A DNA stretch of 64,000 nt from Gemmatimonadales bacterium (GCA_038321865.1 JBBQFH010000006.1:65199-129198), one strand, 5' to 3'; positions 11,407 through 64,000 are shown, counted from the stretch's first letter. A program made the numbers and translations. Notes: a model not told the origin generated them from the sequence alone.

Positions 11407-11422
11407 GAGTCGCTTTCGATGG

Positions 11423-17501: not shown

Positions 17502-17622
17502 CGGCGACTCTGAATGAAGGGAAGTCAATCACGCCCGTTCCCTATCTCGACGAAGGGTGCGGCAGAATGGTTGCAGCCATCCCCGGATTGACATTCGTGT
17601 CCTGACCCGGCTGGATTCCGCG

Positions 17623-19230
17623 ATGCTCGCTTCCGGAGAATCGGAGTCCGCCTGGGCGCCGCTCCGCCATCCGGTGTTCCGCGCGCTCTGGATCGCGACG
17701 GTCGCGTCGAGCGTGGGCACCTGGATGCACGACACCGCGGCGGTCTGGCTGATGACGTCGCTCACCACGTCGACGCTGCTCGTCGCGCTGATGCAGACCG
17801 CCACGAGTCTCCCGGTCCTCTTTCTCGCGCTTCCCGCCGGCGCGCTCGCCGATATCGTGGACCGTCGCCGCCTGCTGCTCGTCACCCAGGCCTGGATGCT
17901 GGCGGCGGCCGCGCTGCTCGGCCTGCTCACGCTGACCGGGCACGTATCGCCCGGTCTCCTGCTCGGCCTCACGTTCGTGCTGGGACTCGGGGCGGCACTC
18001 AACACGCCGGCATGGCAGGCCACGACCCCCGACCTCGTGCCTCGGAGCGAGCTGCCCGCGGCGGTCGCGCTCGGCGGCGTTGCGACCAACATCGCCCGGG
18101 CCGTCGGCCCGGCGATCGGCGGACTCCTGGTCGCCGCGATCGGATCGGGCGGCGTCTTTCTGCTGAACGCGACCTCGTTCGTGGCCGTGCTCGTGGTACT
18201 CTACCGCTGGCGCAACGCCGCCCCCGAAAGCGTCATGCCGGCCGAGCGCGTCGTCGGGGCCATGCGCGCGGGGGTGCGCTACCTGCGGCACGCGCCGGCG
18301 GTGCGGGCGGTGATGGTGCGCTGCGCCACCTTCATTCTCGGCGCAAGCGCCCTCTGGGCGCTCCTGCCGGCGCTCGCCCGCCACCAGCTCGGCCTCGGCG
18401 CGGTCGGCTACGGCGGATTGCTGGGAAGTCTCGGCGTCGGCGCCATCGCCGGCGGCGCCGTGCTGGGCCCGGTGCGGCGGCGGATGGCGACCGACCGGCT
18501 TGTCGCGGCCGCCACCATCGTCTACGCCGCGGCCACGCTCGCGCTCGGCTGGGTCCGGGTCGTCCCGCTGCTGTGGGCCGCGCTTTTCCTCGCCGGTACG
18601 GCCTGGATGACGGCGATGCCGCTCTTCAACGTCGCGACCCAACGCGCCTCCCCCGACTGGGCGCGCGCACGCATCCTCGCCGTCTACGTGCTCGCCTTCA
18701 TGGGAGGGATGGCGGTGGGGAGTGCCTTCTGGGGCGTCGTCGCATCCCGCCTCGGCATCGCAACGGCACTCAGCCTCGCGGCCGGGGTACTGGTAGCCGG
18801 GCTCCTCACCCAGCGCCGCTTTCCGCTGGCCGTCTGGGAGGGTCTCGACCTCACTCCCTCGGACCACTGGCGCGAGCCGGTGGTGCACGGTGACGTGGGG
18901 CCCGATGAAGGGCCGGTGCTGGTGACCGTCGAGTACCGGATCGCCGTGGAGGATGCGGACGCCTTCGCCGAAGCGATGCGCGGGGTCTCGCTGCTCCGCC
19001 GCCGCGACGGTGCCATTACCTGGGGCCTGTACCGCGATACGGCCGATCCCTGCCGCTACCTCGAAACGTTCGCGGCCGAATCCTGGATCGAGCACCTGCG
19101 CCAGCACGCCCGAGCGACCATGTCGGACAAGCGGATCGAAGCGCGCGCCCGGCAGTTTCACCGCGGGCCGGCGCCGCCAGTGGCCTCGCACCTGCTGCAC
19201 GTACCTGTCTCAAGCAAAAGAAACGATTGA
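17623..19230 (+). CDS. MFS transporter with C-terminal soluble extension
   Basis: [19 protein letters not shown]...[16 protein letters not shown] is typical of the MFS_3/EntS-like family, with about 12 TM segments. About 140 non-membrane residues follow the last TM. I start at ATG 17623. Confidence 0.85.
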
Positions 19231-19289
19231 CAATCTATGGAATTGCCTTTCATTAACGGTGTCATGGGCAGGATCGCCAGGGAGCCGCT

Positions 19290-20855
19290 GTGAGCGAACA
19301 GGGAGCAGGGCCACCACCGGGACCGGATCTGGAGCGGGGCATCCCCGCCGCCGACATCGCCGATGGCGGGATGATCACCGGGCATGTCGGCGCGGAGGCC
19401 GTGCTGCTCGCGCGCCGCGGGGAGGAGTGGTTTGCGGTCGGGGCCACCTGCACCCATTACGGGGGTCCACTTGGCGAAGGACTGCTGGTGGGCGACACGG
19501 TGCGCTGTCCCTGGCACCACGCCTGTTTCGACCTCCGGACCGGACGTGTGCTCCGCGCGCCGGCGCTGTTCGACCTGCCCTGCTGGAGTGTCGAGCGCCG
19601 GGGCGATCTGGTGGCGGTCGGCGCACGGGTGCAGGCGCCGCCGCCCAAGCCGGTGAGGAACGCCCCGACCCGAATCGTGCTCGTCGGTGCCGGGGCGGCC
19701 GGAAACAGCGCCGCCGAAACGCTGCGCCGGGAGGGGTACGAAGGCAGCATCATCATGATCGATCCCGATCGGGATGCGCCGTACGACCGGCCGAATCTCT
19801 CCAAGGACTATCTCGCGGGCACGGCGCCCGAGGAATGGATTCCGCTGCACCCGCCCGAGTTCTACGAAGAGCTCGATGTGGAGATCGTGCGGGCCCGGGC
19901 CCGGCGGATCGAGCGCGCCGGCCGGCGGGTCGTGCTCGACGACGGCCGCGCGCTGCCGTACGACGCGCTGCTGCTCGCCCCGGGCGCCGAGCCGAACCGG
20001 CTGTCCATTCCGGTGCGGGGCGAGGTCCGCTATCTGCGCTCGCTCGCGGACAGCCGCGCGATCATCCGTGCCGCCGGAAGCGCCAGGCGCGCCGCGGTGA
20101 TCGGCGCCAGCTTCATCGGCATGGAGGTGGCGGCGGCGCTTCGAAGCCGGGGCCTCGACGTGCACGTCATCGCCCCCGACGAGCGGCCGCTCGAGCGGGT
20201 CCTGGGCCCGGCGCTCGGCGATGCGGTGCGGGCCGTGCACGAGGCACACGGGGTCGTGTTTCACCTGCAGCAGAGTCCCGCCGCCGTCGAGCGGGACGCG
20301 GTGGTGCTCGAGAGTGGCGAGCGGGTCGAGGCGGATCTCGTAGTCGCCGGGATCGGCGTGAAGCCGCGGCTCGAGCTGGCCGACTCCGCCGGCCTGGCGC
20401 AGGATCGCGGGGTGACCGTCAACGAGTTTCTCGAGACCACCGTCGCCGGGATCTATGCCGCCGGCGACATCGCCCGCTGGCCCGATCCGCACAGCGGCGC
20501 GCGGATTCGGGTCGAGCACTGGGTCGTGGCGGAGCGCCAGGGACAGACCGCCGCGCGCAACATGCTGGGGCGGCGCGAGCGATTCGATGCGGTGCCGTTT
20601 TTCTGGAGCGTGCATTTCGAGTTGGGTATCACCTACAGCGGATTCGCCGAGCACTGGGACCACATCGAGCTCGCCGGCAATCTGGAGGGGAGGGACGCGG
20701 TGATGTTCTACCAGGACAAGGGGCGCACGCTGGCCACCGTGACCGTCGCCACGGTCGGCGCGGCAGGTGCATTCGCGCGCGACCGGCAGAATCTTCGGGC
20801 GGAGGCGGCGTTGGAGCAGGGCGCCGACCCGATCGCCGCCGCTGGGGCACCATGA
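19290..20855 (+). CDS. Rieske [2Fe-2S] domain fused to FAD/NAD(P)-dependent pyridine nucleotide-disulfide oxidoreductase
   Basis: Rieske motifs CTHYGGPL and CPWHHACF. The dinucleotide fold [18 protein letters not shown] appears, followed by a second one, [18 protein letters not shown] start. Confidence 0.88.
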
Positions 20856-21448
20856 CGGCGCTCGCGTTCAGCGGCGCGCCGGCGCCGGGTCCGGCGGAGG
20901 AGCTGGCTGCGCTGGTGCGGCGCCAGCTGGAGCTGGTCGGCGAGGATCCCGATCGAGCCGGATTGCTGAGCACGCCGGACCGCGTCGCCCGATCGCTGGC
21001 CTTCCTCACCCGGGGATATGGCGAGACGGCCGCCGACGTGATCGGCGACGCCCTGTTCGAGGAAGCGCACGACAACATGATCCTGGTGCGCGACGTCGAG
21101 TTCTATTCGCTGTGCGAACATCACCTGTTGCCGTTCTTCGGGCGGGCCCACGTGGCGTACATCCCGAACGGGCGCATCGTGGGGCTGTCGAAGCTGGCGC
21201 GGGTCGTCGATGTCTACGCCCGCCGGCTGCAGGTCCAGGAGCGGCTCACCGATCAGATCGCGACGGCGCTCACCGACGTGCTCGAGCCGCGCGGGGTCGG
21301 GGTGGTGCTCGAGGCGTCGCACCTCTGCATGATGATGCGGGGCGTGGAGAAGCAGAACTCGAAGACGATCACCTCGTCGCTGACCGGCGTGTTCCGCCAC
21401 GACGCCAGTACCCGGGACGAGTTCCTGCGGCTGACCCGGTCGTCCTGA
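20852..21448 (+). CDS. folE: GTP cyclohydrolase I
   Basis: [50 protein letters not shown] and [14 protein letters not shown] are canonical FolE motifs. ATG 20852 overlaps the preceding stop (ATGA). Confidence 0.93.
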
Positions 21449-52087: not shown

Positions 52088-52587
52088 CGGTACCGATCCA
52101 GGCCACGGCGGATCTCTGCGACGCGCATGCCGAAGAGATGCGTGTCGCGACACCGCTGCTGCGCGACTATGGCGGAGCGCGGAGCTTCCGGGGCGAAATC
52201 ACCACGCTGCGGTCGGTGGAGGACTATCGGCCGGTGCTTCGAGCGCTGGAGGAGCCCGGCCGCGGGCGGGTGCTCGTGGTGGACGGCGGCGGGTCGCTTC
52301 GGCGCGCGATCCTCGGTGAGCGCCTGCTGCACACGGCGCGCCGAAACGGGTGGGCCGGAGTGGTCATCAATGGCGCGGTGCGTGATTCGGCGATGACGCT
52401 CGAGATCCCCATCGGGCTCCGGGCGCTGGGGACGGTGCCCTGCCGGGGCGAATCGGGCGCGGTCGGTGTGCGGGACATGCCGGTGGAATTCGCCGGTGTC
52501 GTCTTCCGGCCGGGCGAGTGGCTCTGGTCCGATCCGGATGGCATGGTGGTCGGTGACGCATCGCTGGGCGCCGGTGAGGTGGCATGA
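52084..52587 (+). CDS. rraA: RraA family protein (RNase E regulator / HMG-aldolase-like)
   Basis: ATADLCDAH...FRGEITTLRSVEDYRPVLRALEEPGRGRVLVVDGGGSLRRAILGERLL...GWAGVVINGAVRD is the typical RraA pattern. GTG 52084 overlaps the previous stop. Confidence 0.85.
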   Translation: MTVPIQATADLCDAHAEEMRVATPLLRDYGGARSFRGEITTLRSVEDYRPVLRALEEPGRGRVLVVDGGGSLRRAILGERLLHTARRNGWAGVVINGAVRDSAMTLEIPIGLRALGTVPCRGESGAVGVRDMPVEFAGVVFRPGEWLWSDPDGMVVGDASLGAGEVA

Positions 52588-53357
52588 CGCCGGTCGTCCG
52601 TTTTCTCCTCGTCGCCAACGGCCTCGCGTACCTCCTGATCAACCTCATGTTTCCGCAGCTGGGGCTGTCCGACCTGCTCGCCTTCCAGCCGCTCGCCTTG
52701 CTGCTCCGCCCGTGGACGCCCATCACGTACATGTTCGTTCACGCGGACTTCGGCCACATCTTCTTCAACATGCTTGCGCTCTTCTTCTTCGGGCCGCGGG
52801 TCGAGTCGCGGCTGGGGAGCGCGCGGTTTGCCGGCCTGTATCTGGTCAGCGGGCTGGCCGGCGCGGGGCTCTCGTTCATCGAGCCGGTGGCCGCGATCAT
52901 CGGCGCGTCGGGCGCCGTGTTCGGCGTCCAGCTCGCCTTCGCGCGCTACTGGCCACGCGATCGGATCCTGATCTGGGGGGTCCTGCCGGTGGAGGCGTGG
53001 GTACTGGTGATCGTGATGACCGGCATCTCGATCTTCGGCGGTATCGGCCGGACGGGGAACGTGGCGCACTGGGCCCACCTGGGAGGCTTCGCGGGCGCGG
53101 CCATCTACCTGGCACTGATGGAGCGCATCTCGCCCGCCCGGAAATTCCGTGAAGAGAGCCGGCCGGTCACCCGCGTGCCGGGCATTCTGGGCGAGCGGGC
53201 CTCGCTCGAGCGCTGGAATCGGATCAGCGGCGCCGACATGCACGAGGTCAACCGGGAGGAGCTCGACCGCATCCGCTCCGTGCTCTCGCAGCGGGGACTG
53301 GCCGGCCTCACGGCGGAAGACCGGGCGTTTCTCGAGCGATTCAGCGCCGGAAAGTGA
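52584..53357 (+). CDS. Rhomboid family intramembrane serine protease with C-terminal soluble extension
   Basis: HADFGHIFFNMLALFFFGPRVE, the catalytic-Ser motif IGASGAVFG, and AHLGGFAGAAIY. About 75 soluble residues follow the last TM. Confidence 0.85.
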   Translation: MTPVVRFLLVANGLAYLLINLMFPQLGLSDLLAFQPLALLLRPWTPITYMFVHADFGHIFFNMLALFFFGPRVESRLGSARFAGLYLVSGLAGAGLSFIEPVAAIIGASGAVFGVQLAFARYWPRDRILIWGVLPVEAWVLVIVMTGISIFGGIGRTGNVAHWAHLGGFAGAAIYLALMERISPARKFREESRPVTRVPGILGERASLERWNRISGADMHEVNREELDRIRSVLSQRGLAGLTAEDRAFLERFSAGK

Positions 53358-53696: not shown

Positions 53697-54365
53697 ATGA
53701 GGCGTGCGGCCTCAGCCGGCCGGTGGAGCTGGATCGGCATCGCCGCCGCGGCCGGGTTCGCGGTGTCATCGGTCGGAGCCGGAGTGTTGCAGTGGCCGCG
53801 GGATCGCTTCGTGGCGGGCTGGGCACTCGTCGCGGCACTTCTTTCTGCGGTGTTCGGGCGCGCGATCGGGGTCCGCTGGCGGACGCAGCTGCGCCGCCGC
53901 TGGACGGCGGGACTGGCCATGGGCCTGCTGACCGGCGGGTTGCTCGCCCTTACGGTGCTCCGGCAGCCGTCGTCGGCGCATCGCGGCGGTGCGGCCCTCG
54001 CGCTCGATCTGGTGTGGCTCGCCGTGATCTATGGGGCGGCCGACGCGCTCGTGCTGAGCGTCATTCCCGTACTGGCGATCTACGGCAGCCGGCCGGCCGA
54101 CGAGCTGGCCCAGCCGGGCCGACGGCTTCGCTGGGCCGGCGCGGCCCTGCTGGCGAGCCTGGCGGTGACCGCCGCGTATCACCTGGGATTTGCCGAATTT
54201 CGCGATGGCCGGCTGCTGCAGCCGCTGATCGGCAACGCGCTCATCACGATGGCATATCTGCTGAGTGGAAGTCCGGTGGCGCCGGTGGTGGCGCATATCG
54301 TCATGCATGCGGCGGCGCTGCTGCACGGAGCGGCGACGACGGCGCAGCTGCCACCGCATTACTAG
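53697..54365 (+). CDS. Hypothetical integral membrane protein
   Basis: 222 aa with about 6 hydrophobic helices and plausible codon and amino-acid composition. No family recognised. Confidence 0.6.
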   Translation: MRRAASAGRWSWIGIAAAAGFAVSSVGAGVLQWPRDRFVAGWALVAALLSAVFGRAIGVRWRTQLRRRWTAGLAMGLLTGGLLALTVLRQPSSAHRGGAALALDLVWLAVIYGAADALVLSVIPVLAIYGSRPADELAQPGRRLRWAGAALLASLAVTAAYHLGFAEFRDGRLLQPLIGNALITMAYLLSGSPVAPVVAHIVMHAAALLHGAATTAQLPPHY

Positions 54366-55239: not shown

Positions 55240-55698
55240 TCAGTTGGCCGGCTTCTGCTGCAGCAGCGTGGCCACGTCCAGGTTCCTGTGCGCGAGGGCG
55301 ACGTCTTCCGGAAGCTGGCCCTGCTCGTTGGCCACGGACCGATCGGCCCCGGCGGCGAGCAGCGCCGCCGCGGCGTCCCGTGAGCCGGATTCGGCCGCGT
55401 GGTGGAGCGCGGTGTTCCCCGTCAGATTGGTCGCGTCGATGCCGGCGCCCCGGGCGAGGAGCACCCGGATCGCCGCGGGCCGGTTGTACCATGCGGCCCA
55501 GTTGAGCGCGCGCCGGCCGTTGGGAGAACGCCGGACATCGAGCGAATCGACTCTCGCTCCGTCATCCAGCGCGCGGGTGATCGCAACCGTGTCACCCGCC
55601 ATCGCGGCATCCCAGAGACGGCTCTGCGGAGTCTGGGCCAGGGCCGGATGCGCTCCGGTGACGCAGAGTCCGACGAGCACGAGCAGCGCGCGCGTCAT
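55240..55698 (-). CDS. Secreted ankyrin-repeat protein
   Basis: Signal peptide MTRALLVLVGLCVTGAHPALAQ. Ankyrin repeats include GRRALNWAAWYNRPAAIRVLLARGAGIDA and GNTALHHAAESGSRDAAAALLAAGAD. The ATG overlaps the TAA of the upstream gene by 1 nt (TAATG). Confidence 0.85.
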   Translation of the reverse strand: MTRALLVLVGLCVTGAHPALAQTPQSRLWDAAMAGDTVAITRALDDGARVDSLDVRRSPNGRRALNWAAWYNRPAAIRVLLARGAGIDATNLTGNTALHHAAESGSRDAAAALLAAGADRSVANEQGQLPEDVALAHRNLDVATLLQQKPAN

Positions 55699-58232
55699 TA
55701 CCGCGCGAACCAGTACGACACCTTCACCAGGAAGGTGTCGTTCGCTCGCTGGCGGAAGAGGTCGCCCAGATCGCCGGCGAACGACCTCACCCCTTCGATC
55801 GGCGCCGACCCCTGGCGTCCCTGGCTCCAGACCAGGAAGAGCGTCGAGCCCGCCCGGTACTCCCAGCGGAACACGACGTTCGAGCGAAACTCCTTGACGT
55901 TGAATCCACCCGGATCGGCGGCGACGGACGGATCGCCGTAGGGCTGGAAGCGCGCGTCATAATCGGCGGCGCGGGCGTCGGCCAGCTCGCGGACGTCGGA
56001 GTACGTGCCCTTGGACACGAAGGGTGAGGCGTAGACCTGGAGCGACGCGGTCGGCGTGAAGGTGTAACCCAGCCGCCAGGTCAGGCTCAGCGTCTGCTGA
56101 TCCAGGTGCGCGAAGGTGTAGTGCGCCACGGCCGTGCTGTCGGTGAAGGTCCCGAAGTACTGCGAGTCATCGCGATTGGTGCTGTAGCTCGCGCTGACCG
56201 AGGTGGTGAATCGCGTCGACACCTTGAGATCCAGCTCGGGCGACAGGTTGAGCCGGCGCGAATGGCCCTGGTCTCCCCGGAAATAGTTGAACCAGAGCGA
56301 GGGCACCAGCCCCTTGCGATCGTCGCCCACGATGCCGCCCCACGGGGCGATATACGGATCCTGCCGGATGGCCGGCCCTCCGCGTGCGCACCGGTCGCAG
56401 AAGGTCGTGCCGACCTGGCCGAGCGTGCCGCCGGTGTGCAGCCACCAGCGATTGTTGAACTGAGTGTGGATGTTGGTGTTGAAGGCGCGCTCGGTCGGCA
56501 GCCCCGCCAGCGTCCAGTACTCCCAGTTGTTGAAGTTCCAGCGGAACTGCTGGAACACCCGGTTGGGCTTCCGGAACGCCAGCGCCGCCCAGCTGGTCCA
56601 CTGCTGCTGGTCGGCCTGGCGAAGGAAGCCGATGTCGTTGATCTCGAATCCCGGCGAGCGGCGCTGGTAGGCCGTCTCGAACTGGAGACGATTGCCGCCG
56701 ACCTTGGCGAACCGCATCTCCATGTTGGTGCCGCTGAGCGACGTACGCGTGGAGTCGAATGTGAGCGGGCCGTCGGGGCGCTGGTACAGGTGCACCGGAT
56801 CGCGCTGGGTCGACGCGATGGCCTCGGGTGTGCCGCCGATGCGGCTGAAGTCGAGCGAAGCCGACGCCTCGAACCGGCCGGCGAAGCGCCGACGGGCGTC
56901 GAGCCCGCCGCTGTATGCCTCACGATGGAGGTACGGTTCACTCGACGGATCGAGTGAACGATTCACGCCGGTCAGGATGAAGCCGACGCTGCCGTTGCCG
57001 TTGGCGTAGTCCTGGTTGCCGCGGATGACACCGTAGTTGGTGGTCGGCTCGAGTGTGCTGCCGGCGGGACCGTCGACCCGATCCGTCACCGCATCCAGAA
57101 TCCCGAGCGAGAAGCCGCCCGGCAGGCGACCGGTCACCTTGCCGGCGCCAAGAATTCGGGTGGACGTCGCGGAGGACTCGTCGCCGTACCGGCCGCCCAG
57201 CTGAGGTGACCGGCCGATTCGCCGGGAGTAGAAGAGTCCCTCACCAGTGTTGCAGTCGACGACGATGACGCAGTTCACGCTGAAGGTGAAGAGCCCTTTC
57301 CCCTCGACGAAGAAGGGCCGGCGCTCGCTGAAGAAGGTCTCGAACGCCCCCAGGTTGAGCACCGAGGGATCGGCCTCGACCTGACCGAAGTCCGGATTGA
57401 CCGTGGCATTCAGGAGCAAATTGGACGCAATGCGGTATTTCAGGTCGCCACCGACCGTCAGCTTCTGGTCGCGTCCGAAGCTGCTCGACGCCGGCCGCTG
57501 TACGTTCTGGGTCACGACATAGGGTGTAATCTCGGCGTGGCCGGGACTGCTGAGGGTGTCCAGTCCGCTCAGGCTGCCGAACTGGGAGACGAGCCCCGAT
57601 CTGGAGCCGCGGTAGAGCGGCCACGTGATGGTTTCGGTGTAGCGCTGCACGACCCGCCAGATCAGAATGCCGAACGTTCCCGCGCCCTGCTTCCGGGAGT
57701 AGCGCATTTGCGAGAGCGGCAGCCGGTATTCGGCGGTCCATCCCAGCGAATCGATCCTTGTCGCGACATCCCAGATCGCATCCCAGGCATCGTCCTCGTT
57801 GCCGTCGTTGTAGATGGCATAGTCCGCCTTGACCCCGACCGGGTTCACCGAGAACTCGTAGCCGGTTCGCCGGTCGTGATACGAATCGAGCATGACGGTG
57901 ATGTGGTCGGACGCCGTCTGCTCATCCCGTCGGGAGAGGAGCCTGACGATGCTGTCGGGGTGGGGATCGAAGGCCCGCACGAACACGTACAGATTGTGGT
58001 CGTCGTAGGCGACGCGCGCTGCGGTCCGCAGTTTGGGCGGGGCGCCTTCGGTCGGGCGCGCCTCGAGGAACTGGTCGATCACCGGGGCTTCCCGCCACAC
58101 GGCATCGTCGTCCCGCCCGTCGAGGACGGGCGCGACGACGGCGCGCGTGGCATGCACCGTGGCCGGGATCGGTGTCGCGAGCGGCGCCGATTGCACCTGC
58201 AGCATCAGCAGCATGCCCATCAATGCAGTCAT
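55698..58232 (-). CDS. CBM9-like / DUF5916 family outer-membrane-type protein (paralog 2)
   Basis: I start at ATG 58232 (MTALMGMLLMLQVQSA). PVLDGRDDDAVW...WTAEYRLPLSQMRY aligns with 14850..17501. The beta-rich C-terminus ends VKVSYWFAR. The longer ORF-track start would overlap the upstream gene by 50 nt. Confidence 0.8.
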   Translation of the reverse strand: MTALMGMLLMLQVQSAPLATPIPATVHATRAVVAPVLDGRDDDAVWREAPVIDQFLEARPTEGAPPKLRTAARVAYDDHNLYVFVRAFDPHPDSIVRLLSRRDEQTASDHITVMLDSYHDRRTGYEFSVNPVGVKADYAIYNDGNEDDAWDAIWDVATRIDSLGWTAEYRLPLSQMRYSRKQGAGTFGILIWRVVQRYTETITWPLYRGSRSGLVSQFGSLSGLDTLSSPGHAEITPYVVTQNVQRPASSSFGRDQKLTVGGDLKYRIASNLLLNATVNPDFGQVEADPSVLNLGAFETFFSERRPFFVEGKGLFTFSVNCVIVVDCNTGEGLFYSRRIGRSPQLGGRYGDESSATSTRILGAGKVTGRLPGGFSLGILDAVTDRVDGPAGSTLEPTTNYGVIRGNQDYANGNGSVGFILTGVNRSLDPSSEPYLHREAYSGGLDARRRFAGRFEASASLDFSRIGGTPEAIASTQRDPVHLYQRPDGPLTFDSTRTSLSGTNMEMRFAKVGGNRLQFETAYQRRSPGFEINDIGFLRQADQQQWTSWAALAFRKPNRVFQQFRWNFNNWEYWTLAGLPTERAFNTNIHTQFNNRWWLHTGGTLGQVGTTFCDRCARGGPAIRQDPYIAPWGGIVGDDRKGLVPSLWFNYFRGDQGHSRRLNLSPELDLKVSTRFTTSVSASYSTNRDDSQYFGTFTDSTAVAHYTFAHLDQQTLSLTWRLGYTFTPTASLQVYASPFVSKGTYSDVRELADARAADYDARFQPYGDPSVAADPGGFNVKEFRSNVVFRWEYRAGSTLFLVWSQGRQGSAPIEGVRSFAGDLGDLFRQRANDTFLVKVSYWFAR

Positions 58233-58308
58233 CGGTAGCGGTCCGTGCGAATGGTGGAACTTGGACAGCCGAAGCGCCCAAAGGGTTGCATGGTCCGGGC
58301 GGATTGAC

Positions 58309-59652
58309 TCACGGGAACGGGCGCGGGCGTGGCTGAGGCCACGGCCACGGATCGACACCGCTCCGGCCTGCGATGCCGCGGATCGCGGCGGCGCGCACCT
58401 CGGGATCCTTCGATTCGAGGAGCTCGGTCAGCCGCTCGGACCGCTCGCCGGAATGAATGAGTGCCCGGATCTCGGCTTTGCGGCCTCGCGGATCCTGTTC
58501 GCGCGCCAGCGCGGTGCGGAGCGCCGGGATCGCCGCGCCGTCCCCAATTTCCGAGAGCGCCCATGCCGCTTTCATCCTGACGCCCGCATCGCTGTCGCTC
58601 AGCGCGTCGATCAGGCCCTTGGGAGCAGGCTGCACACCCAGCTGGCCCAGGGCCCAGGCCAGCGTGCCGCGGACGCGCGCGCTCCGCTCCGACGCAATCA
58701 TCTCTCCCAGGCCTGCCACCGCGGCGTGGTCATCGCGCTCGGCGATAGCCCAGGCCGCCATCTCCCGAACCGATTCGTCGACATCGCTGCGCGCCGCCTG
58801 CAGCAGCGCGGGTGCGCTCGTCCGGTCATTGATGGTGCCGATGGCCCAGGCGCACATTTCCCTGACGGTGGGGTCGCGATCGCCTTTCAGCGCGGCCGCG
58901 AGCCCGTCCATCGATTCGCGCGCTTCGAGCTGTCCCAGCGCCCAGGCCGCGGTGCGGCGTACCGCCGCCACCGTGTCATCGCGGAGCAGGCGCAGCAGCG
59001 CGGGCGCCGCGCTGGCCGAATCGAGTTGTCCCAGCGTCCCGGCCGCCGCCTGCCGTACCAGCGCGGAGCGGTCGCCGATGACCGCGCTCACCGGGCGGAC
59101 CGCGCGGCCGTCGCCGATCCGTCCGAGGGCCCAGACCGCATCGGCCCTGGTGCCGGCGGCGGGATCCTGGATGGCGCGGATCAGCGGCGCCACCGCGCTC
59201 TTCGCACCGACGAGTCCAAGCCCCAGCGCGCCGAGCATGCGGACGGTGGAGTCCGGCGCCGTCAGCCGCTGGGTCAGGCCGCCCGCGACCTGGCTGGTGT
59301 CCTGGATGCCCAGCAGCCGGACCGCGAGTTCGCGCACGCACGCATCATCGGTGGACAGGCTCTCAAGGAGGAACTGGACATCCTCCGGTGACGCCGTTGC
59401 CCGTCCGTCCCGGCGCGAATGCCACCAGTCGGAGCGAGGCAGGGCCGTGGCGGGTGCGTCGTACCATCCGCCCCACCCGTTGCCGACCGCGCCCGCTGCG
59501 AGGGCGCAGACCGCGGCGGGAGCCCCCTGCGCCGCTGCGATGAGATCTCGAATGCCGCCGGGCGCCGCCGCGACATCCACGGACGACGCCGGCTGCGCCG
59601 CGGGGGACAGGGTGACGGCCGCCGCGAGCGCGGCTCCGATGAGGCGTATCAT
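58309..59652 (-). CDS. Secreted HEAT-repeat protein ending in PWPWPQPRPRPFP
   Basis: Signal peptide MIRLIGAALAAAVTLSPAAQP (ATG 59652, with GGGAG 5 nt upstream; ATG 59664 is the alternative). It has about 10 HEAT/PBS-lyase-type repeats (VRRTAAWALGQL, VREMCAWAIGTI, VREMAAWAIAE, VRMKAAWALSEIGD). Confidence 0.85.
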   Translation of the reverse strand: MIRLIGAALAAAVTLSPAAQPASSVDVAAAPGGIRDLIAAAQGAPAAVCALAAGAVGNGWGGWYDAPATALPRSDWWHSRRDGRATASPEDVQFLLESLSTDDACVRELAVRLLGIQDTSQVAGGLTQRLTAPDSTVRMLGALGLGLVGAKSAVAPLIRAIQDPAAGTRADAVWALGRIGDGRAVRPVSAVIGDRSALVRQAAAGTLGQLDSASAAPALLRLLRDDTVAAVRRTAAWALGQLEARESMDGLAAALKGDRDPTVREMCAWAIGTINDRTSAPALLQAARSDVDESVREMAAWAIAERDDHAAVAGLGEMIASERSARVRGTLAWALGQLGVQPAPKGLIDALSDSDAGVRMKAAWALSEIGDGAAIPALRTALAREQDPRGRKAEIRALIHSGERSERLTELLESKDPEVRAAAIRGIAGRSGVDPWPWPQPRPRPFP

Positions 59653-59684
59653 GTTCGCTCCCATGAATGAAGACTCCGGTGTGG

Positions 59685-59714
59685 TGAAATTTCAGCACTA
59701 CAGTGCAAAAGAAA
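59685..59714 (-). promoter_or_regulatory. AT-rich 30-bp motif copy A (candidate operator/promoter) upstream of the HEAT gene
   Basis: TGAAATTTCAGCACTACAGTGCAAAAGAAA matches 62177..62206 at 20 of 30 ungapped positions. The blocks TGAnATTTCAnCAC and AAAAG are shared. It contains the inverted repeat GCACT-ac-AGTGC. Confidence 0.45.
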
Positions 59715-59761
59715 TGGGCGACGCGCGAGTCACGCGGCGCCCATGTATCCGGGCGCCTGGC

Positions 59762-61729
59762 TCAGGGGAAGGGGCGCGGCTGGGGTCGCGGCCACGGCCA
59801 CGGGCCAGTTGCACCGCCGCCCGCGAGCGCCCGGATGGCGACATTCCGCACCGCGGTGTCCGGTGAGGCGACCAGTCGTTCGAGTTCGCTGACCGATCCG
59901 TCGCCCAGGCTGCCGAGCGCGCGGATGAGGCCGACCTGCACATCGCTGTCGGTTTCCCGGCGCACCGCGCTCGCCACCGCGGCCGACGTCTCCGTGTCCC
60001 TGATGGTGTACAGCGCCCAGGCCACCGATTCGCGCACGTCCCGGTCGCGATCGTTGAGCGCGGCGACGAGTGGCGCGGGTGCCCGATCCGGGCGGCAGGA
60101 GCCGATCGACCAGGCTGCCATGTCGCGGGTGACTGCGCTGCTGTCGCGCAGCGCCTCGACCAGCGGTCCGATCGCCTCGCCACAGCCCATCGATCCCAGC
60201 GCCCAGGCGGCGGTGGCACGCACCTCGGAGTCGTGATCCTGCCGTATCGCCTTCCCCAGTGCGTCGGCGGCGTCGGCGCTGCGCCGGGCGCTGGCCAGGG
60301 CCCACGCCGCCATCTCGCGAACCGATGCGTCCGCGTCACTCCCCACCGCGCCGACGAGGGCCAAGCGTCCGACATCCTCGCGGGCGTATCGCTGCAGTCC
60401 CCACGCCGCCACCCGGCGGACCGACGCGTTCGGGTCGCTGCGGAGCGTCCTGGCCAGGACCGCGGCGCGGTCATCGGCGGAAGTCGCCGGGATGGTGTCG
60501 CGCATGGCACCATCGCCTGTATGCGCTCGTTGGCCCGGAAGCACCGGCACATGGGGAACGGCTGGCGGAGCTGTTTCCAGCGACAGCCGCGTGTGTCCCG
60601 TGTCGGCCCGGTCCGGGGCGGCGGCGGGATTGGGCCGGGACGTGACCACCGGTGACTGCGGAGCCTCGCGAGGCACCGGAGCGGCGGCGCCGACCAGCAG
60701 CGACACCAAAGCGAGACTGCCGATGATCGACGCGCTCTGACTGCGGCTCGGGCCCCGGCGGCGAAGCTCGGGGTTCAGGATGGCGAGCATGCGGCCCTCG
60801 AATTCCTTGCGGTGCGCCATGGCCAGCGCCACCGACGGGGTATAGTGATCGCGAACGCACGTCACGATCTCGAGCAGGTGCTCGGCGTAATCGCTCGGAC
60901 GGGCGCCGAACACCAGCGCGAGATCGTCGCAGGCGCGCTCGCTCTCGGCCCGGAGCCGGCGCGCCGCGGTCCATACGAGCGGATGGAACCAGTAGAGCGC
61001 GCAGCTGATGCGGCCGACGGTGTGGCCAATGAGATCGCGCCGGCGCACATGCCCCAGCTCGTGAATCAGCACCGCGCTCCGGCGCTCGGCGCTCCACTCG
61101 TCACTCTCGGCGGGGAGGACGATGGTGGCCGAGAACACGCCGGCGGCGAACGGCATCTTCACGTCCTCACTGCGCACCAGGCGCGGCGCGTGGTCCAGCT
61201 CCAGGCGGTCGGCGATCTCGTACAGCGGCGTCTGCCAGGCGGCATCATCCAGCGGGCGCGCGCGCCGGACGATGCGGCGGACGGCATACGCTCCGTACGC
61301 GAGCCGCCCGGCCAGCACGAGCGCCATGACCGCCCAGCCGAGGACAAGCATGCTGCCGATCGAGAGTGCGCGGACGCCGGCGAATCCCGTCGGTTCGGAG
61401 CCAGTCACCGTCGAGGGGCTCGAAGCGGCGGAGCTCTCCTCCGGCCTTGTCGCGTCAGGGCCGGCGCCTGGCTGATGCAGCTCACGATTCAGCGGCGCGG
61501 CCGCCAGCGCCGGAAGCACGCGGATCGAAAGCGGGCTCCAGGCGGCGAGCGCCGGCATGACGAGCAGGGCAGCGAGCACCACCAGCCAGACGAGGTGTCG
61601 CGAGCCGGCCGACGCACGCGACATGGCCAGTGATGCCGCCAGCGCAGCGAGAAGCAGGCAGGTAACTTTGAGCAGCATCAGCAGAAGGGAGAGTGCCGCT
61701 GGCGGGGTGACGGGCAGCGTGAGCATCAT
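59762..61729 (-). CDS. M56 family (BlaR1/MecR1-like) membrane metallopeptidase with C-terminal HEAT-repeat sensor domain ending in PWPWPRPQPRPFP
   Basis: N-terminal TM helices are present. The zinc motif reads SAVLIHELGHVRRRDL...YWFHPLVW, the M56 signature. A further TM (IIGSLALVSLLVGAAA) is followed by HEAT repeats (VRRVAAWGL, VREMAAWAL, VRATAAWALGSMG, VRESVAWAL). ATGA overlap with the BlaI-like gene. Confidence 0.88.
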   Translation of the reverse strand: MMLTLPVTPPAALSLLLMLLKVTCLLLAALAASLAMSRASAGSRHLVWLVVLAALLVMPALAAWSPLSIRVLPALAAAPLNRELHQPGAGPDATRPEESSAASSPSTVTGSEPTGFAGVRALSIGSMLVLGWAVMALVLAGRLAYGAYAVRRIVRRARPLDDAAWQTPLYEIADRLELDHAPRLVRSEDVKMPFAAGVFSATIVLPAESDEWSAERRSAVLIHELGHVRRRDLIGHTVGRISCALYWFHPLVWTAARRLRAESERACDDLALVFGARPSDYAEHLLEIVTCVRDHYTPSVALAMAHRKEFEGRMLAILNPELRRRGPSRSQSASIIGSLALVSLLVGAAAPVPREAPQSPVVTSRPNPAAAPDRADTGHTRLSLETAPPAVPHVPVLPGQRAHTGDGAMRDTIPATSADDRAAVLARTLRSDPNASVRRVAAWGLQRYAREDVGRLALVGAVGSDADASVREMAAWALASARRSADAADALGKAIRQDHDSEVRATAAWALGSMGCGEAIGPLVEALRDSSAVTRDMAAWSIGSCRPDRAPAPLVAALNDRDRDVRESVAWALYTIRDTETSAAVASAVRRETDSDVQVGLIRALGSLGDGSVSELERLVASPDTAVRNVAIRALAGGGATGPWPWPRPQPRPFP

Positions 61730-62124
61730 GACCTCTCGTTCCGCCGGGCCCGGCGAATCCTGTCGCGCAGCCGCGCGATCTCGGCATCGTCCACGTCGGC
61801 ATCCGACAGCCGGAGGAGTGCCGTCACCGCCTGCTCGGCGGAGCCGCCGAAGTAGGTGTGGACCACGTGGGCGAGCACGTCGTCGCGCGCCTTGTCGGTC
61901 GGCCGGGCGGGCGAATAGACGTAGCGCGGGCCATCTTCCTTGTGCGCGATGAGCGCCTTCTCCCCCAGGATGCGCAGGATGGAGCGCACGGCGGAGTAGC
62001 TCGGTGGATCGGGCAATGCCTGCATGATCTCCGTCACGGTCGCCTCGCCTCGGCGGTGGAGAATCTCCATGACCTGCCGTTCGCGGCGGGACAGTTGTTC
62101 GGTCGAAGGGGGGCGCTGCGTCAT
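61726..62124 (-). CDS. BlaI/MecI/CopY family transcriptional repressor
   Basis: LSRRERQVMEILHRRGEATVTEIMQALPDPPSYSAVRSILRILGEKALI...YVYSP is the winged-helix BlaI family pattern. I start at ATG 62124. Confidence 0.88.
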   Translation of the reverse strand: MTQRPPSTEQLSRRERQVMEILHRRGEATVTEIMQALPDPPSYSAVRSILRILGEKALIAHKEDGPRYVYSPARPTDKARDDVLAHVVHTYFGGSAEQAVTALLRLSDADVDDAEIARLRDRIRRARRNERS

Positions 62125-62176
62125 GTGGCTCTCCTGGGGCGGATCCTGCGCGCCGCGGGTCGGCCCGGCGCTATGC

Positions 62177-62206
62177 TGATATTTCAACACATCTGCTGAA
62201 AAGTCA
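62177..62206 (-). promoter_or_regulatory. AT-rich 30-bp motif copy B (candidate operator/promoter) in the blaI-like / NTF2-like divergent region
   Basis: TGATATTTCAACACATCTGCTGAAAAGTCA. On the minus strand it reads TTGACT-17 nt-AAATAT, which is sigma70-like. It lies 53 nt upstream of the blaI-like ATG and 23 nt upstream of the GTG at 62229 on the other strand. Confidence 0.45.
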
Positions 62207-62228
62207 ACCCCCTGCGGAGGAACTCCTC

Positions 62229-63072: not shown

Positions 63073-64000
63073 ATGACCACCTTCGCGCTCGTGCTGACCG
63101 TCCTGGTCGCCTCCACCTCGTCTCCGCAGCAGCATCCGCCGGCGGTCGCCGTGACCGGGCTGCGGACCGAGTATCTGGCGAACCCCGTCGGGACGGATGA
63201 GCGGCACCCGCGCCTGAGCTGGCGGCTGGTGAGCTCCGGTCGGAACGTCATGCAGTCCGCCTACCAGATCGCCGTCACCACCGACTCGGCCGGCTTCGAC
63301 GCAGCCCGGGAGCTGATCTGGAATTCGGGACGCACGGCGTCCGGCGAGTCGGTCTTCGTGCCGTACCGCGGGCCGGCGTTGCGTTCAGGTACGCGCTACT
63401 ACTGGCGCGTGCGCGTCTGGGACGCGGCGGGGCACGCCTCGCCGTGGAGCGAGCCGGCGTTCTGGGAGACCGGGCTGCTCGAGCGCCGCGACTGGACCGC
63501 GAGCTGGATCCGGCCGCCCGACGCCGACCACGATTCGGCCGGCGGCGTGGCGCCGATGCTCCGCCGGGCGTTCGCCCTCAGCGGGCCGGTGCGGTCCGCG
63601 CGGCTGTACGTGACCAGTCTCGGACTCTATGAGCTGGAGCTCAATGGCCGGCGAGTGGGCACGGACCGGTTCACGCCCGGATGGACCAGCTACGGCAAGC
63701 GGCTGCAATACCAGACGTACGACGTGACCCGGCTGCTGCAGCCCGGCGCCAATGCGGTCGGCGCCACGCTCGGTGACGGCTGGTACCGCGGCCACCTGGG
63801 TTTCGCCGATCGGCAGAACCTGTACGGGCGCCGGGTCGCGCTGCTGCTGCAGCTCGATGTGCGGTACGCGGACGGACACACCGACCGTGTCGTCAGCGAC
63901 GGCGCCTGGACGGCGTCAGCCGGGCCGATCATCATGTCCGATATCTACGGTGGCGAAACCTACGATGCCCGGCGCGAGCGCACCGGCTGGACCACCGCGA
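63073..64000 (+). CDS. Alpha-L-rhamnosidase (GH78) N-terminal part; gene runs off window end
   Basis: Translation from ATG 63073 reads GLRTEYLANPVGTDERHPRLSWRL...QSAYQIAVT...TRYYWRVRVWD...WSEPAFWETGLL...APMLRRAF...ARLYVTSLGLYELELNGRRVG...FTPGWTSY. These are typical GH78 N-terminal domains. It is absent from the ORF track because there is no stop inside the window. Confidence 0.88.
   Translation, partial: MTTFALVLTVLVASTSSPQQHPPAVAVTGLRTEYLANPVGTDERHPRLSWRLVSSGRNVMQSAYQIAVTTDSAGFDAARELIWNSGRTASGESVFVPYRGPALRSGTRYYWRVRVWDAAGHASPWSEPAFWETGLLERRDWTASWIRPPDADHDSAGGVAPMLRRAFALSGPVRSARLYVTSLGLYELELNGRRVGTDRFTPGWTSYGKRLQYQTYDVTRLLQPGANAVGATLGDGWYRGHLGFADRQNLYGRRVALLLQLDVRYADGHTDRVVSDGAWTASAGPIIMSDIYGGETYDARRERTGWTTA

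What the first reader, a model, noticed from the sequence alone, without database searches (positions are those of the whole stretch)
55240..62124. BlaI / BlaR1-type signalling cluster with a HEAT-repeat sensor, linked to a second HEAT protein, a CBM9/DUF5916 outer-membrane-type protein and a secreted ankyrin protein
Five same-strand genes are tightly packed. The BlaI-like repressor (61726..62124) overlaps the M56 BlaR1-like protease (59762..61729) by ATGA. After a 97-nt spacer comes a signal-peptide HEAT protein (58309..59652). After 76 nt comes a DUF5916/CBM9-like protein (55698..58232). Its TAA overlaps the ATG of a signal-peptide ankyrin protein (55240..55698). Classical BlaR1/MecR1 sense beta-lactams through a penicillin-binding extracytoplasmic domain. 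Here the domain after the last TM helix is a HEAT-repeat array, and a paralogous HEAT array is encoded separately with its own signal peptide. Both would therefore be periplasmic. The arrangement suggests an envelope-spanning sense-and-derepress system with an unknown ligand. The divergent neighbours (NTF2-like, VOC, GH78 rhamnosidase) and the CBM9-like module hint at a glycan cue. I know of no characterised system with this composition.
Basis: partly seen in the sequence, partly recalled or inferred. Interest (0 to 1): 0.72.

Follow-up and report, generated by a model that had tools for sequence, protein, structure and literature searches.

The report
BlaI/BlaR-type switch with HEAT sensor
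This is an uncharacterised, Gemmatimonadota-wide relative of the BlaI/BlaR1 antibiotic-sensing switch in which the penicillin-binding sensor is replaced by a periplasmic HEAT-repeat domain, and the gene it controls encodes a secreted copy of that same domain.

Summary
All five minus-strand genes exist at the stated coordinates, and every family assignment holds. These are BlaI-like repressor, M56 protease plus HEAT array, free HEAT protein, CBM9/DUF5916 and ankyrin.

Synteny cuts the unit down. Among 80 species-representative loci:
- blaI lies directly upstream in 77 of 77 readable loci.
- The free HEAT paralogue lies directly downstream in 67 of 68.
- DUF5916 follows in 19 of 59.
- The ankyrin, NTF2-like, VOC, GNAT and GH78 genes appear in none.

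- **Operator.** A 16-bp palindrome, TGYTGA-N4-TCARCA, overlaps the blaI promoter. It recurs, after a terminator-like hairpin, in front of the free HEAT gene. That gives two repressor-controlled units, with the free HEAT protein as the output.
- **Tail.** Sensor and output both end in a (X-Pro)7 tail, PWPWPxPxPRPFP. It is conserved at the protein level and found nowhere else in the DNA examined.
- **Paralogue.** A second DUF5916 gene in the window is unlinked to this system.

Best reading: a non-beta-lactam BlaIR-family envelope sensor whose output is a periplasmic paralogue of its own sensor domain, acting as a decoy or feedback binder. The ligand is unknown. The glycan cue and five-gene machine are not supported. 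This is a new variant of a known kind, of moderate interest.

The parts
61726..62124 (-). BlaI-like winged-helix repressor, 132 aa
   Evidence: Pfam Penicillinase_R, E = 5e-24, covering 1-114 of the 115 model positions. It is 65-87% identical to the orthologue directly upstream of the sensor gene in 77/77 loci. It has no cysteines in its C-terminus, so it is not CopY-type (sequence).
59762..61729 (-). M56 (BlaR-like) membrane zinc protease fused to a C-terminal HEAT array, 655 aa
   Evidence: Pfam M56, E = 5e-35, over aa 16-316; HEAT_2, E = 4e-37. Four hydrophobic helices lie at about 12-36, 46-64, 121-139 and 334-352, with an Arg-rich stretch after the third. HELGH and ESERACDD are invariant in 24 homologues. 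HELGH aligns with HEYAH of the BlaR1 structure 8EXS.
61049..61063 (-). Codons for the HELGH zinc-binding motif (aa 223-227)
   Evidence: Invariant H223, E224, H227 in alignment A1. Aligned to the HEXXH of BlaR1.
59765..59803 (-). C-terminal tail of the sensor, PWPWPRPQPRPFP
   Evidence: Present in 118 of the 120 best homologues. All seven Pro are invariant in 76 loci although all four Pro codons are used.
58309..59652 (-). Free exported HEAT-repeat protein, 447 aa; paralogue of the sensor domain and proposed output of the system
   Evidence: HEAT_2, E = 8e-61. It is 41% identical to sensor aa 425-648. It lies directly downstream in 67/68 loci. AF2 gives pLDDT 86.8 with about 11 repeats. An N-terminal hydrophobic segment occurs in 84/92 homologues, 8 of them lipobox-like. 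Two cysteines are invariant.
58312..58350 (-). C-terminal tail of the free HEAT protein, PWPWPQPRPRPFP
   Evidence: The motif occurs exactly twice per locus, in the sensor and the free HEAT protein, and nowhere else in 1.3 Mb of related loci or in the window.
62174..62189 (.). Operator O1, a perfect palindrome TGTTGAAATATCAGCA overlapping the -10 region of the blaI promoter
   Evidence: 3 hits in the window against 0.13 expected. The same motif is found upstream of blaI in 77 of 81 loci.
62194..62209 (.). Second, one-mismatch operator copy overlapping the -35 box (TTGACT, 62202-62207)
   Evidence: Tandem operator pairs occur upstream of blaI in most loci.
59714..59744 (-). GC-rich hairpin followed by a T-run; intrinsic-terminator-like, after the sensor gene
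   Evidence: Free energy -22.7 kcal/mol, z = -3.7, 7 T in 8. Also picked up weakly by the scan. Hairpins of different sequence occupy the same place in other loci, with a median of -25 kcal/mol over 73 loci.
59682..59697 (.). Operator O2 (TGCTGAAATTTCACCA on the minus strand) in front of the free HEAT gene
   Evidence: The operator occupies this spacer in 65 of 69 loci with a free HEAT hit, plus 8 truncated loci.
55698..58232 (-). CBM9-like plus DUF5916 predicted outer-membrane beta-barrel, 844 aa; accessory, clade-specific member
   Evidence: Pfam DUF5916, E = 1e-60; CBM9_1, E = 2e-7. AF2 gives pLDDT 63.5, a beta-sandwich plus about 22 long strands. Foldseek matches MtrB, TonB-dependent barrels and CBM9. 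It follows the free HEAT gene in 19/59 loci. No operator or clear terminator lies in the 76-nt spacer.
55240..55698 (-). Signal-peptide ankyrin protein, 152 aa; lineage-specific passenger, not part of the conserved system
   Evidence: Ank_2, E = 1e-14. It has an N-terminal hydrophobic segment ending ALA-QT. There are no homologues in any of 84 related loci.

Best explanation
This is a non-canonical BlaI/BlaR-family signalling switch made of two transcription units, both guarded by the same repressor.

**Unit 1 is blaI plus the M56-HEAT sensor gene.** Its promoter (TTGACT, 17 nt, AAATAT) is overlaid by one perfect and one imperfect copy of a 16-bp palindrome, TGYTGA-N4-TCARCA.

**Unit 2 starts after a terminator-like hairpin.** It has its own copy of the palindrome. 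It encodes an exported HEAT protein that is a paralogue of the sensor's periplasmic domain. In this lineage it continues into a DUF5916 outer-membrane barrel gene and an ankyrin gene.

**Shown by sequence and comparison:**
- the gene order;
- the operators;
- the hairpin;
- the intact HEXXH protease;
- the BlaR1-like four-helix layout, which places the HEAT array outside the cytoplasm;
- the paralogy of sensor domain and output protein;
- the shared C-terminal (X-Pro)7 tail.

**Inferred by analogy with BlaR1/BlaI, PetP/PetR and CenR/CenI:** a periplasmic cue acting on the HEAT domain switches on the cytoplasmic zinc protease. The protease cleaves the repressor. Both units are then derepressed.

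**Inferred more weakly:** the output is a soluble copy of the sensor domain, so it probably binds what the sensor binds. That ligand is a protein, peptide or envelope component, as expected for an alphaRep- or importin-like solenoid. The output would therefore work as a periplasmic decoy or sequestering protein that also resets the sensor. The tail would be a shared docking or lid element. The ligand is unknown.
For: - **Domains:**
- **Protease core:** HELGH and ESERACDD are invariant. HELGH aligns with the HEXXH of BlaR1 structure 8EXS.
- **Topology:** four helices and the positive-inside pattern. The Pfam M56 model is matched end to end.
- **Operator:** 3 hits in the window against 0.13 expected. 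It lies upstream of blaI in 77/81 loci and before the free HEAT gene in 65/69. Only 2 weak hits occur elsewhere in 1.32 Mb.
- **Promoter:** a conserved TTGAC[AT] box sits 12 nt before the operator.
- **Terminator:** a hairpin plus T-run lies between the two units.
- **Synteny:** 77/77 and 67/68.
- **Paralogy:** 41% identity, E = 8e-24.
- **Export of the free HEAT protein:** a hydrophobic N-terminus in 84/92 homologues, lipobox-like in 8, and two invariant cysteines.
- **Fold:** a high-confidence solenoid whose nearest solved folds are the protein- and peptide-binding alphaRep, importin-alpha and PP2A-A.
- **Tail:** under protein-level selection and unique to these two proteins.
- **Precedents for non-beta-lactam BlaIR systems:** PMC13492132 (CenIR; only about 6% of M56 proteins carry a transpeptidase domain) and bioRxiv 10.1101/2020.07.31.226407 (PetRP).
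Against: - No experiment shows that the repressor binds the palindrome or that the protease cleaves it.
- The BlaI cleavage-site residues (Asn-Phe in S. aureus, from memory) are not recognisably conserved.
- The loop between helices 2 and 3 and the 60-100-residue linker after helix 4 are variable and Pro/Ala-rich. The BlaR1 mode of coupling sensor to protease may therefore not apply.
- Helix-B (concave-face) positions of the repeats are poorly conserved among orthologues.
- Cognate sensor/output pairs are no more alike than non-cognate pairs, 42.4% against 42.3%. Nothing in the sequences directly shows that the two bind the same ligand.
- The promoter of unit 2 is only weakly recognisable.
- The signal peptide of the free HEAT protein has no clean AXA site. 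It might be membrane-anchored rather than soluble.
Confidence: 0.6

Rival explanations
1. The free HEAT protein is a feedback inhibitor or co-sensor that acts directly on the sensor, in the manner of CpxP on CpxA or MgrB on PhoQ. It would not sequester an external ligand. One form of this: the tail of one protein occupies the groove of the other, and the system measures how much free HEAT protein is present or intact in the periplasm.
For: - The output is a paralogue of the sensor domain and sits under the sensor's own control.
- Both carry the same conserved tail.
- Solenoids of this fold typically bind extended peptides, and importin-alpha is auto-inhibited by such a peptide (plus general knowledge).
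Against: - No co-variation between cognate pairs was detected.
- The tail pLDDT is only about 65.
Confidence: 0.2
2. One reading: a five-gene, envelope-spanning machine that senses a glycan. Its parts are the repressor, sensor, free HEAT protein, DUF5916 barrel and ankyrin protein. The CBM9-like domain would capture the sugar and the HEAT proteins would relay the signal.
For: - The genes are tightly packed and co-directional.
- DUF5916 is recurrently placed right after the free HEAT gene: 19/59 loci, in two divergent subfamilies, against about 2 background copies in 1.3 Mb of flanks.
- The fold is an outer-membrane barrel plus CBM9.
- The long flexible linker of the sensor could span the periplasm.
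Against: - Ankyrin, NTF2-like, VOC, GNAT and GH78 are found in 0 of 80-84 loci.
- DUF5916 is absent from two thirds of loci, where a small lipoprotein or unrelated genes follow instead.
- DUF5916 is multi-copy, with an unlinked paralogue in the window.
- There is no evidence that the CBM9-like domain binds sugar.
Confidence: 0.1
3. A metal-responsive switch of the CopY or PetR/PetP type, for example responding to copper.
For: - The best NCBIfam hit of the repressor is CopY_TcrY, but at 35 bits against a cut-off of 122.
- PetRP shows that an M56-type protease can respond to copper (bioRxiv 10.1101/2020.07.31.226407).
- The free HEAT protein has two invariant cysteines.
Against: - The repressor has no C-terminal cysteine motif (sequence).
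- The loop between helices 2 and 3 is not conserved and has no conserved Met/His/Cys.
- The neighbourhood holds no conserved metal transporter or chaperone.
- A large conserved HEAT domain is unnecessary for that mechanism.
Confidence: 0.05
4. A canonical beta-lactam-sensing BlaR1/BlaI resistance system.
For: Sources name the sensor 'beta-lactamase regulating signal transducer'. The M56 and Penicillinase_R domains are present.
Against: - There is no transpeptidase or penicillin-binding domain.
- NCBIfam blaR1_generic scores 85 bits against a cut-off of 400 and covers only the protease part.
- No beta-lactamase or PBP gene is under the operator.
Confidence: 0.02

Closest known systems
BlaI/BlaR1 and MecI/MecR1 of Staphylococcus aureus and Bacillus licheniformis
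   Same: - A winged-helix repressor of the Penicillinase_R family is paired with a four-helix M56 zinc protease.
- The extracytoplasmic domain follows the last helix.
- Palindromic operators lie in an autoregulated promoter and in front of the output gene.
- The sensor domain is a structural relative of the induced output: a PBP/beta-lactamase fold there, a HEAT solenoid here.
   Different: - The sensor is a HEAT array, not a penicillin-binding domain.
- Gene order is blaI then blaR, with the output co-directional downstream rather than divergent.
- The operator sequence differs.
- The linker and the extracellular loop are long and variable.
- The cue is unknown.
CenI/CenR of Clostridioides difficile (PMC13492132)
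   Same: - A BlaIR-family pair without a beta-lactam-binding domain.
- The most strongly induced regulon member is an adjacent exported protein of unknown function.
- The signal is unknown.
- The paper documents that most M56 proteins carry other C-terminal domains.
   Different: - The C-terminus of CenR is short and predicted disordered.
- The output protein is not a paralogue of the sensor.
- It is a Gram-positive system.
- HEAT is not among the nine architectures with 100 or more InterPro entries listed there.
PetR/PetP of Synechocystis (bioRxiv 10.1101/2020.07.31.226407)
   Same: A BlaI/CopY-family regulator and an M48/M56 protease with overlapping stop and start codons. Regulation works through controlled proteolysis of the regulator. 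The regulon is small and local.
   Different: PetP has no extracytoplasmic domain. Its signal is copper.
M56 proteins with a C-terminal TonB_C domain (second most common M56 architecture, PMC13492132)
   Same: An M56 protease is joined by a Pro-rich linker to a periplasmic protein-interaction domain that could reach outer-membrane proteins.
   Different: The domain is HEAT, not TonB_C. Linkage to an outer-membrane barrel (DUF5916) is only partial. No TonB box is known.
CpxP/CpxA and similar induced periplasmic feedback proteins
   Same: A periplasmic protein encoded in the regulon of an envelope sensor is the likely modulator of that sensor.
   Different: The signalling chemistry is unrelated: a two-component kinase there, a protease and repressor here. 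CpxP is not a paralogue of the sensor domain.
PBS-lyase-type HEAT-like repeats and alphaRep binders
   Same: 31-residue repeats of the form VRxxAAxALG. The best PDB sequence and fold matches are alphaRep proteins.
   Different: These proteins are exported. They carry a unique (X-Pro)7 C-terminal tail. The free protein also has an N-terminal cap with two invariant cysteines.

Membership tests
BlaI/MecI/CopY repressors (Pfam PF03965) | Full-length match to the winged-helix plus dimerisation domain model | tested here: met
   E = 5e-24, 85 bits against a cut-off of 22.6, covering model positions 1-114 of 115.
BlaI/MecI/CopY repressors (Pfam PF03965) | Gene paired with an M56 protease gene | tested here: met
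   ATGA overlap in the window. Adjacent in 77/77 loci.
BlaI/MecI/CopY repressors (Pfam PF03965) | Palindromic operator in its own promoter (autoregulation) | tested here: met
   A 16-bp palindrome lies at the -10 region in 77/81 loci. Binding itself was not shown.
BlaI/MecI/CopY repressors (Pfam PF03965) | Signal-dependent cleavage in the dimerisation domain | not testable with these tools
   The residues at the position of the S. aureus site are not conserved (sequence compared with the BlaI sequence from memory).
CopY/TcrY copper repressors | C-terminal CxCxxxxCxC metal-binding motif; NCBIfam equivalog score | tested here: not met
   No cysteine in the C-terminal half. TIGR02698 scores 35.5 bits against a cut-off of 122.
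BlaR1/MecR1 beta-lactam sensor-transducers | M56 protease domain with HEXXH and four transmembrane helices | tested here: met
BlaR1/MecR1 beta-lactam sensor-transducers | C-terminal penicillin-binding (transpeptidase-fold) sensor domain | tested here: not met
   The C-terminus is HEAT repeats. blaR1_generic scores 85 bits against a cut-off of 400 and sensor_MecR1 21 bits against 1200, over the protease part only.
Non-canonical BlaIR-family systems (M56 protease plus BlaI-like regulator, other sensor) | M56 and PF03965 gene pair lacking the transpeptidase domain | tested here: met
   The family is as delimited in PMC13492132.
HEAT / PBS-lyase HEAT-like repeat proteins | Tandem repeats of about 31 residues forming an alpha-solenoid | tested here: met
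   HEAT_2 and HEAT_PBS hits. AF2 solenoid, pLDDT 86.8. AlphaRep matches.
Phycobilin lyases and NblB (CpcE/F type) | Equivalog-level match; cytoplasmic location with phycobiliproteins | tested here: not met
   Scores are far below the cut-offs: 78 against 330, and 59 against 300. The proteins here are exported.
DUF5916 (PF19313) | Match to the family model | tested here: met
   E = 1e-60, 206 bits.
Outer-membrane beta-barrel proteins | Large antiparallel barrel, signal peptide, C-terminal aromatic beta-signal | tested here: inconclusive
   AF2 predicts about 22 long strands, but pLDDT is only 63.5. The best folds are MtrB and TonB-dependent barrels. The C-terminus is ...SYWFAR, not a terminal Phe.
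CBM9 carbohydrate-binding modules | CBM9 fold | tested here: met
   CBM9_1 scores 31.3 bits against a cut-off of 23.4. Foldseek matches to 7NWO and 1I82 have TM-scores of 0.67-0.73 relative to the target.
CBM9 carbohydrate-binding modules | Conserved sugar-stacking tryptophans and demonstrated glycan binding | not tested
   No residue-level comparison was made.
Ankyrin-repeat proteins | Ank repeats | tested here: met
   Ank_2, E = 1e-14.
Anti-phage defence systems (PADLOC) | Specific match to a defence-system protein model | tested here: not met
   Only partial, generic HEAT and ankyrin repeat hits.

The most novel reading that the evidence does not exclude
The HEAT solenoid plus the invariant (X-Pro)7 tail form a previously undescribed periplasmic docking module. 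The membrane protease, tethered by a long flexible linker, would use it to probe an envelope site, for example the lumen or CBM9 domain of the DUF5916 barrel, or another outer-membrane or cell-wall component. The induced free copy would compete for the same site. The system would then report on outer-envelope state by tether and decoy competition rather than by binding a small molecule.
Probability: 0.12. Interest if true: 0.75.

Novelty: new variant of a known kind. Interest (0 to 1): 0.5.

Why it matters
BlaIR-type switches are now known to be mostly not about beta-lactams, yet almost none of the other sensor types has a known signal or output.

This family is present in at least 548 species-level genomes, almost all of them soil and sediment Gemmatimonadota. 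It comes with an unusually complete set of predictions drawn from sequence alone:
- a defined operator;
- two defined promoters;
- a defined output gene;
- a sensor domain and output that are paralogues.

Ligand hunting therefore becomes direct. The soluble output protein can serve as bait for whatever the sensor detects. The invariant Pro-alternating tail is a short, testable element with no described counterpart. It also corrects the annotation 'beta-lactamase regulating signal transducer' that some sources give these proteins.

Tried and rejected
1. **Gene neighbourhood as a clue to the cue.** Ank, NTF2-like, VOC, GNAT, rhomboid, Rce1-like and GH78 have no homologue in any related locus. 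They were dropped.
2. **Co-diversification of sensor and output.** An immunity-like, hypervariable binder was the idea. Cognate and non-cognate identities are equal, so it was rejected.
3. **Conserved concave-face residues as a ligand-site signature.** Conservation is confined to structural helix-A positions. Uninformative.
4. **Tail as a general sorting signal.** It occurs only in these two proteins in 1.3 Mb plus the window. It has no hydrophobic helix, unlike PEP-CTERM, LPXTG or T9SS signals. Rejected.
5. **Tail conservation as a DNA-level artefact.** Rejected by codon usage.
6. **Defence system.** PADLOC gives only generic repeat hits.
7. **RNA element in the spacers.** There is no Rfam match.
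8. **Literature on DUF5916, on the tail motif, or on BlaR1 with HEAT.** Nothing relevant was found.
10. **Small lipoprotein after the free HEAT gene in 17 loci.** There is only a sub-threshold Peptidase_S41 hit, E = 0.006. It is a lead, not a finding.
11. **Tail docking in the AF2 model.** This could not be inspected because coordinates are not exposed.

Full report
**Observation**

The region 55240-62124 carries five co-directional minus-strand ORFs exactly as described. Pfam supports every assignment.

| Coordinates | Pfam family | Score |
|---|---|---|
| 61726-62124 | Penicillinase_R | E = 5e-24, full length |
| 59762-61729 | Peptidase_M56 (aa 16-316, model 4-295 of 296) | E = 5e-35 |
| 59762-61729 | HEAT_2 | E = 4e-37 |
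| 58309-59652 | HEAT_2 | E = 8e-61 |
| 55698-58232 | DUF5916 | E = 1e-60 |
| 55698-58232 | CBM9_1 | 31 bits against a cut-off of 23 |
| 55240-55698 | Ank_2 | E = 1e-14 |

- The blaI/M56 ATGA overlap, the DUF5916/Ank TAATG junction and the 76-nt spacer are correct.
- The quoted 97-nt spacer belongs to an alternative ATG at 59664.
- The two HEAT arrays are true paralogues. Sensor residues 425-648 align with free-protein residues 219-440 at 41% identity, E = 8e-24.
- The divergent neighbours are NTF2-like (Lumazine_bd_2), VOC and a GH78 rhamnosidase N-terminus.

**What is conserved**

The M56-HEAT architecture is abundant. There were 2277 database proteins with E <= 1e-10 in a capped search, and nearly all named ones come from Gemmatimonadota. 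I took the best 80 loci with 10-kb flanks and searched them with the window's proteins.

| Gene | Position relative to the sensor gene | Loci |
|---|---|---|
| blaI | directly upstream | 77 of 77 with readable upstream DNA |
| free HEAT paralogue | directly downstream | 67 of 68 |
| DUF5916 | next after free HEAT | 19 of 59 (15 close orthologues, 4 from a ~35%-identical subfamily) |
| Ank, NTF2-like, VOC, GNAT, rhomboid, Rce1-like, GH78 | anywhere in the locus | 0 |

- In 17 Gemmatimonadaceae-type loci the gene after the free HEAT gene is instead a lipoprotein of about 150 aa with no family assignment.
- The window holds a second DUF5916 paralogue at about 14859-17375, 39% identical. Its context is unrelated.
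- The conserved system is therefore three genes. DUF5916 is a frequent, clade-specific accessory. The ankyrin gene is a local passenger.

- *blaI promoter.* Upstream of blaI lies TTGACT (62202-62207), then 17 nt, then AAATAT (62179-62184).
- *Operator.* The -10 element sits in the centre of a perfect 16-bp palindrome, TGTTGAAATATCAGCA (62174-62189). A one-mismatch copy overlaps the -35 box (62194-62209). A third copy (59682-59697) lies in the spacer before the free HEAT gene.
- *Window statistics.* The window has 3 hits where 0.13 are expected, and none elsewhere in 64 kb.
- *Across loci.* I examined 81 non-redundant loci, 1.32 Mb in all. The motif TGYTGA-N4-TCARCA lies upstream of blaI in 77, usually as a tandem pair behind a conserved TTGAC[AT]. 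It lies in the sensor-to-free-HEAT spacer in 65 of 69 loci, plus 8 truncated ones. Only two weak hits occur anywhere else.
- *Terminator.* Between the sensor stop codon and the second operator there is a GC-rich hairpin followed by a T-run. In the window it spans 59714-59744, with a free energy of -22.7 kcal/mol, z = -3.7. Across 73 loci the median is -25 kcal/mol, with stems of different sequence.
- *Reading.* There are two transcription units, both carrying the operator of a BlaI-type dimeric repressor. One is the autoregulated blaI-sensor pair. The other begins with the free HEAT gene, and in this lineage it probably continues through DUF5916 and Ank. No operator or convincing terminator lies in the 76-nt spacer. 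That the repressor binds this palindrome is an inference from position, symmetry and perfect co-occurrence. It is not a measurement.

**The proteins**

*Sensor.*
- It has four hydrophobic helices, at about 12-36, 46-64, 121-139 and 334-352.
- An Arg-rich segment after the third helix and the HELGH motif (223-227) fall in the long loop between helices 3 and 4.
- HELGH and the downstream ESERACDD and EFEGRML blocks are invariant in 24 diverse homologues.
- HELGH aligns with the HEXXH of the BlaR1 cryo-EM structure 8EXS. That pairwise match is weak (E = 0.3), but the profile matches are strong.
- Transferring the established BlaR1 topology puts the HEAT array in the periplasm.
- The loop between helices 2 and 3, and the 60-100-residue linker after helix 4, are variable and Pro/Ala-rich. 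The HEAT domain therefore hangs on a long flexible tether.

*Free HEAT protein.*
- Its N-terminus is hydrophobic, as in 84 of 92 homologues. Eight of those have a lipobox-like site.
- It has two invariant cysteines, C49 and C105, in an N-terminal cap that the sensor lacks.
- It is predicted with high confidence (pLDDT 86.8) to be a solenoid of about 11 repeats.
- The nearest solved folds are alphaRep binders, importin-alpha and the PP2A A subunit. All of these bind proteins or extended peptides.

*DUF5916 protein.*
- The model has moderate confidence (pLDDT 63.5). It shows an N-terminal beta-sandwich and about 22 long strands.
- Foldseek matches the barrel to the MtrB porin, SlpA and TonB-dependent barrels. 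It matches the N-terminus to CBM9 modules.

**The tail**

- The sensor and the free HEAT protein end in PWPWPRPQPRPFP and PWPWPQPRPRPFP.
- The tail is present in 118 of 120 sensor homologues and 115 of 120 free-protein homologues, usually as the very C-terminus.
- It occurs exactly twice per locus and nowhere else in the loci or the window.
- All seven prolines and the penultimate arginine are invariant across 76 and 64 loci. All four Pro codons and six Arg codons are used, so selection acts on the peptide.
- I found no description of such a motif. Its role is unknown. Candidates are a docking peptide for a shared partner, or a lid on the solenoid acting within one molecule or between molecules.

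**Mechanism**

Three experimentally studied systems serve as analogies. BlaR1/BlaI is textbook knowledge. PetP/PetR is described in bioRxiv 10.1101/2020.07.31.226407. CenR/CenI is described in PMC13492132.

1. A periplasmic event at the HEAT domain activates the cytoplasmic zinc protease.
2. The protease cleaves the repressor, and both units are derepressed.
3. The induced product is a soluble or anchored copy of the sensor domain. The most economical reading is that it binds what the sensor binds. It would then buffer or neutralise that ligand and reset the switch. The classical systems have the same logic: the sensor domain shares a fold with the induced beta-lactamase or PBP.

A close rival is direct feedback of the free protein on the sensor, as with CpxP.

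I looked for sequence support for a shared or co-evolving binding surface and found none. Concave-face positions are poorly conserved. Cognate pairs are no more similar than non-cognate pairs, 42.4% against 42.3%. This leaves the decoy step as inference.

The envelope-spanning idea involving DUF5916 remains possible for the clades that have it. It cannot be the general mechanism.

A glycan cue has no support beyond the CBM9-like fold. Copper sensing of the CopY type, and beta-lactam sensing, are excluded at the level of defining motifs.

**Comparison and novelty**

- The pair belongs to the broad BlaIR family. It is not BlaR1/MecR1 in the strict sense, because it has no penicillin-binding domain and scores far below the equivalog cut-offs.
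- A 2026 survey found that only about 6% of M56 proteins carry a transpeptidase domain and counted 254 architectures. HEAT is not among the nine architectures with 100 or more InterPro entries (PMC13492132).
- The existence of an M56-HEAT protein is thus unsurprising to a specialist, and databases already name the individual genes.
- Four things are new: the definition of the system as a three-gene core; its operator and two promoters; the sensor-paralogue output; and the invariant (X-Pro)7 tail.
- I rate it a new variant of a known kind, with interest about 0.5.

**Limits**

- Nothing was measured. Operator binding, cleavage, localisation and the ligand are all predictions.
- Model coordinates could not be inspected, so the position of the tail relative to the solenoid is unknown.
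- The survey covers the 80 best of at least 548 loci. The more distant relatives may differ.

Noticed in passing
window 14850-17528 (-): A second DUF5916 paralogue, 39% identical to 55698-58232 (Pfam E = 2e-66). It has no BlaI, M56 or HEAT neighbour. Around it are DUF2911 (12148-13392), an MFS_3 transporter (17557-19230), a protein ending in a GTP cyclohydrolase I domain (18953-21448) and a beta-CASP RNase (10012-11607).
   Followed up: partly
L024, L033, L036, L039, L048, L055, L061, L063, L066, L068, L080, L082-L084 and others, immediately after the free HEAT gene: In 17 Gemmatimonadaceae-type loci the gene after the free HEAT gene is a lipoprotein of about 150-180 aa with no Pfam family. 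There is only a sub-threshold Peptidase_S41 hit (E = 0.006). S41 enzymes recognise C-termini, which is suggestive given the conserved tail, but the hit is not significant.
   Followed up: partly
window 58309-59652 (-), residues C49 and C105: Two cysteines are invariant in 61 free HEAT homologues. They lie in an N-terminal cap (DVxxLLxAAxGAPxxxC ... SxDACVRELAV) that the sensor domain lacks. They may form a periplasmic disulfide or a redox or metal site.
   Followed up: no
window 52584-53357 (+) and 53697-54365 (+): A rhomboid protease gene and a weak Rce1-like (CAAX protease) membrane protein gene lie just beyond the cluster. Neither is conserved near the system in other genomes.
   Followed up: partly
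window 63073-64000 (+): The N-terminal part of a GH78 alpha-L-rhamnosidase (Ig_Rha78A_N plus Bac_rhamnosid_N) runs off the window end. It is absent from all related loci.
   Followed up: yes
sensor homologues P0062, P0071, P0072, P0077, P0079, P0086, P0088, P0089, P0091, P0092, P0104, P0105, P0115, P0117: A minority of sensors extend the tail with a short acidic stretch (e.g. ...PRPFPDEGDEE). A free C-terminal carboxylate right after PFP is therefore not strictly required.
   Followed up: no
L070 (8-691, -) and L076 (6858-9302, -): In two loci that lack DUF5916 downstream, a DUF5916 homologue lies upstream on the opposite strand. This is a further hint of a recurrent but loose association.
   Followed up: no
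L049 (Candidatus Eisenbacteria) and L058 (Verrucomicrobiia): Two of the 80 best loci come from bins assigned outside Gemmatimonadota. This may be real transfer or mis-binning.
   Followed up: no
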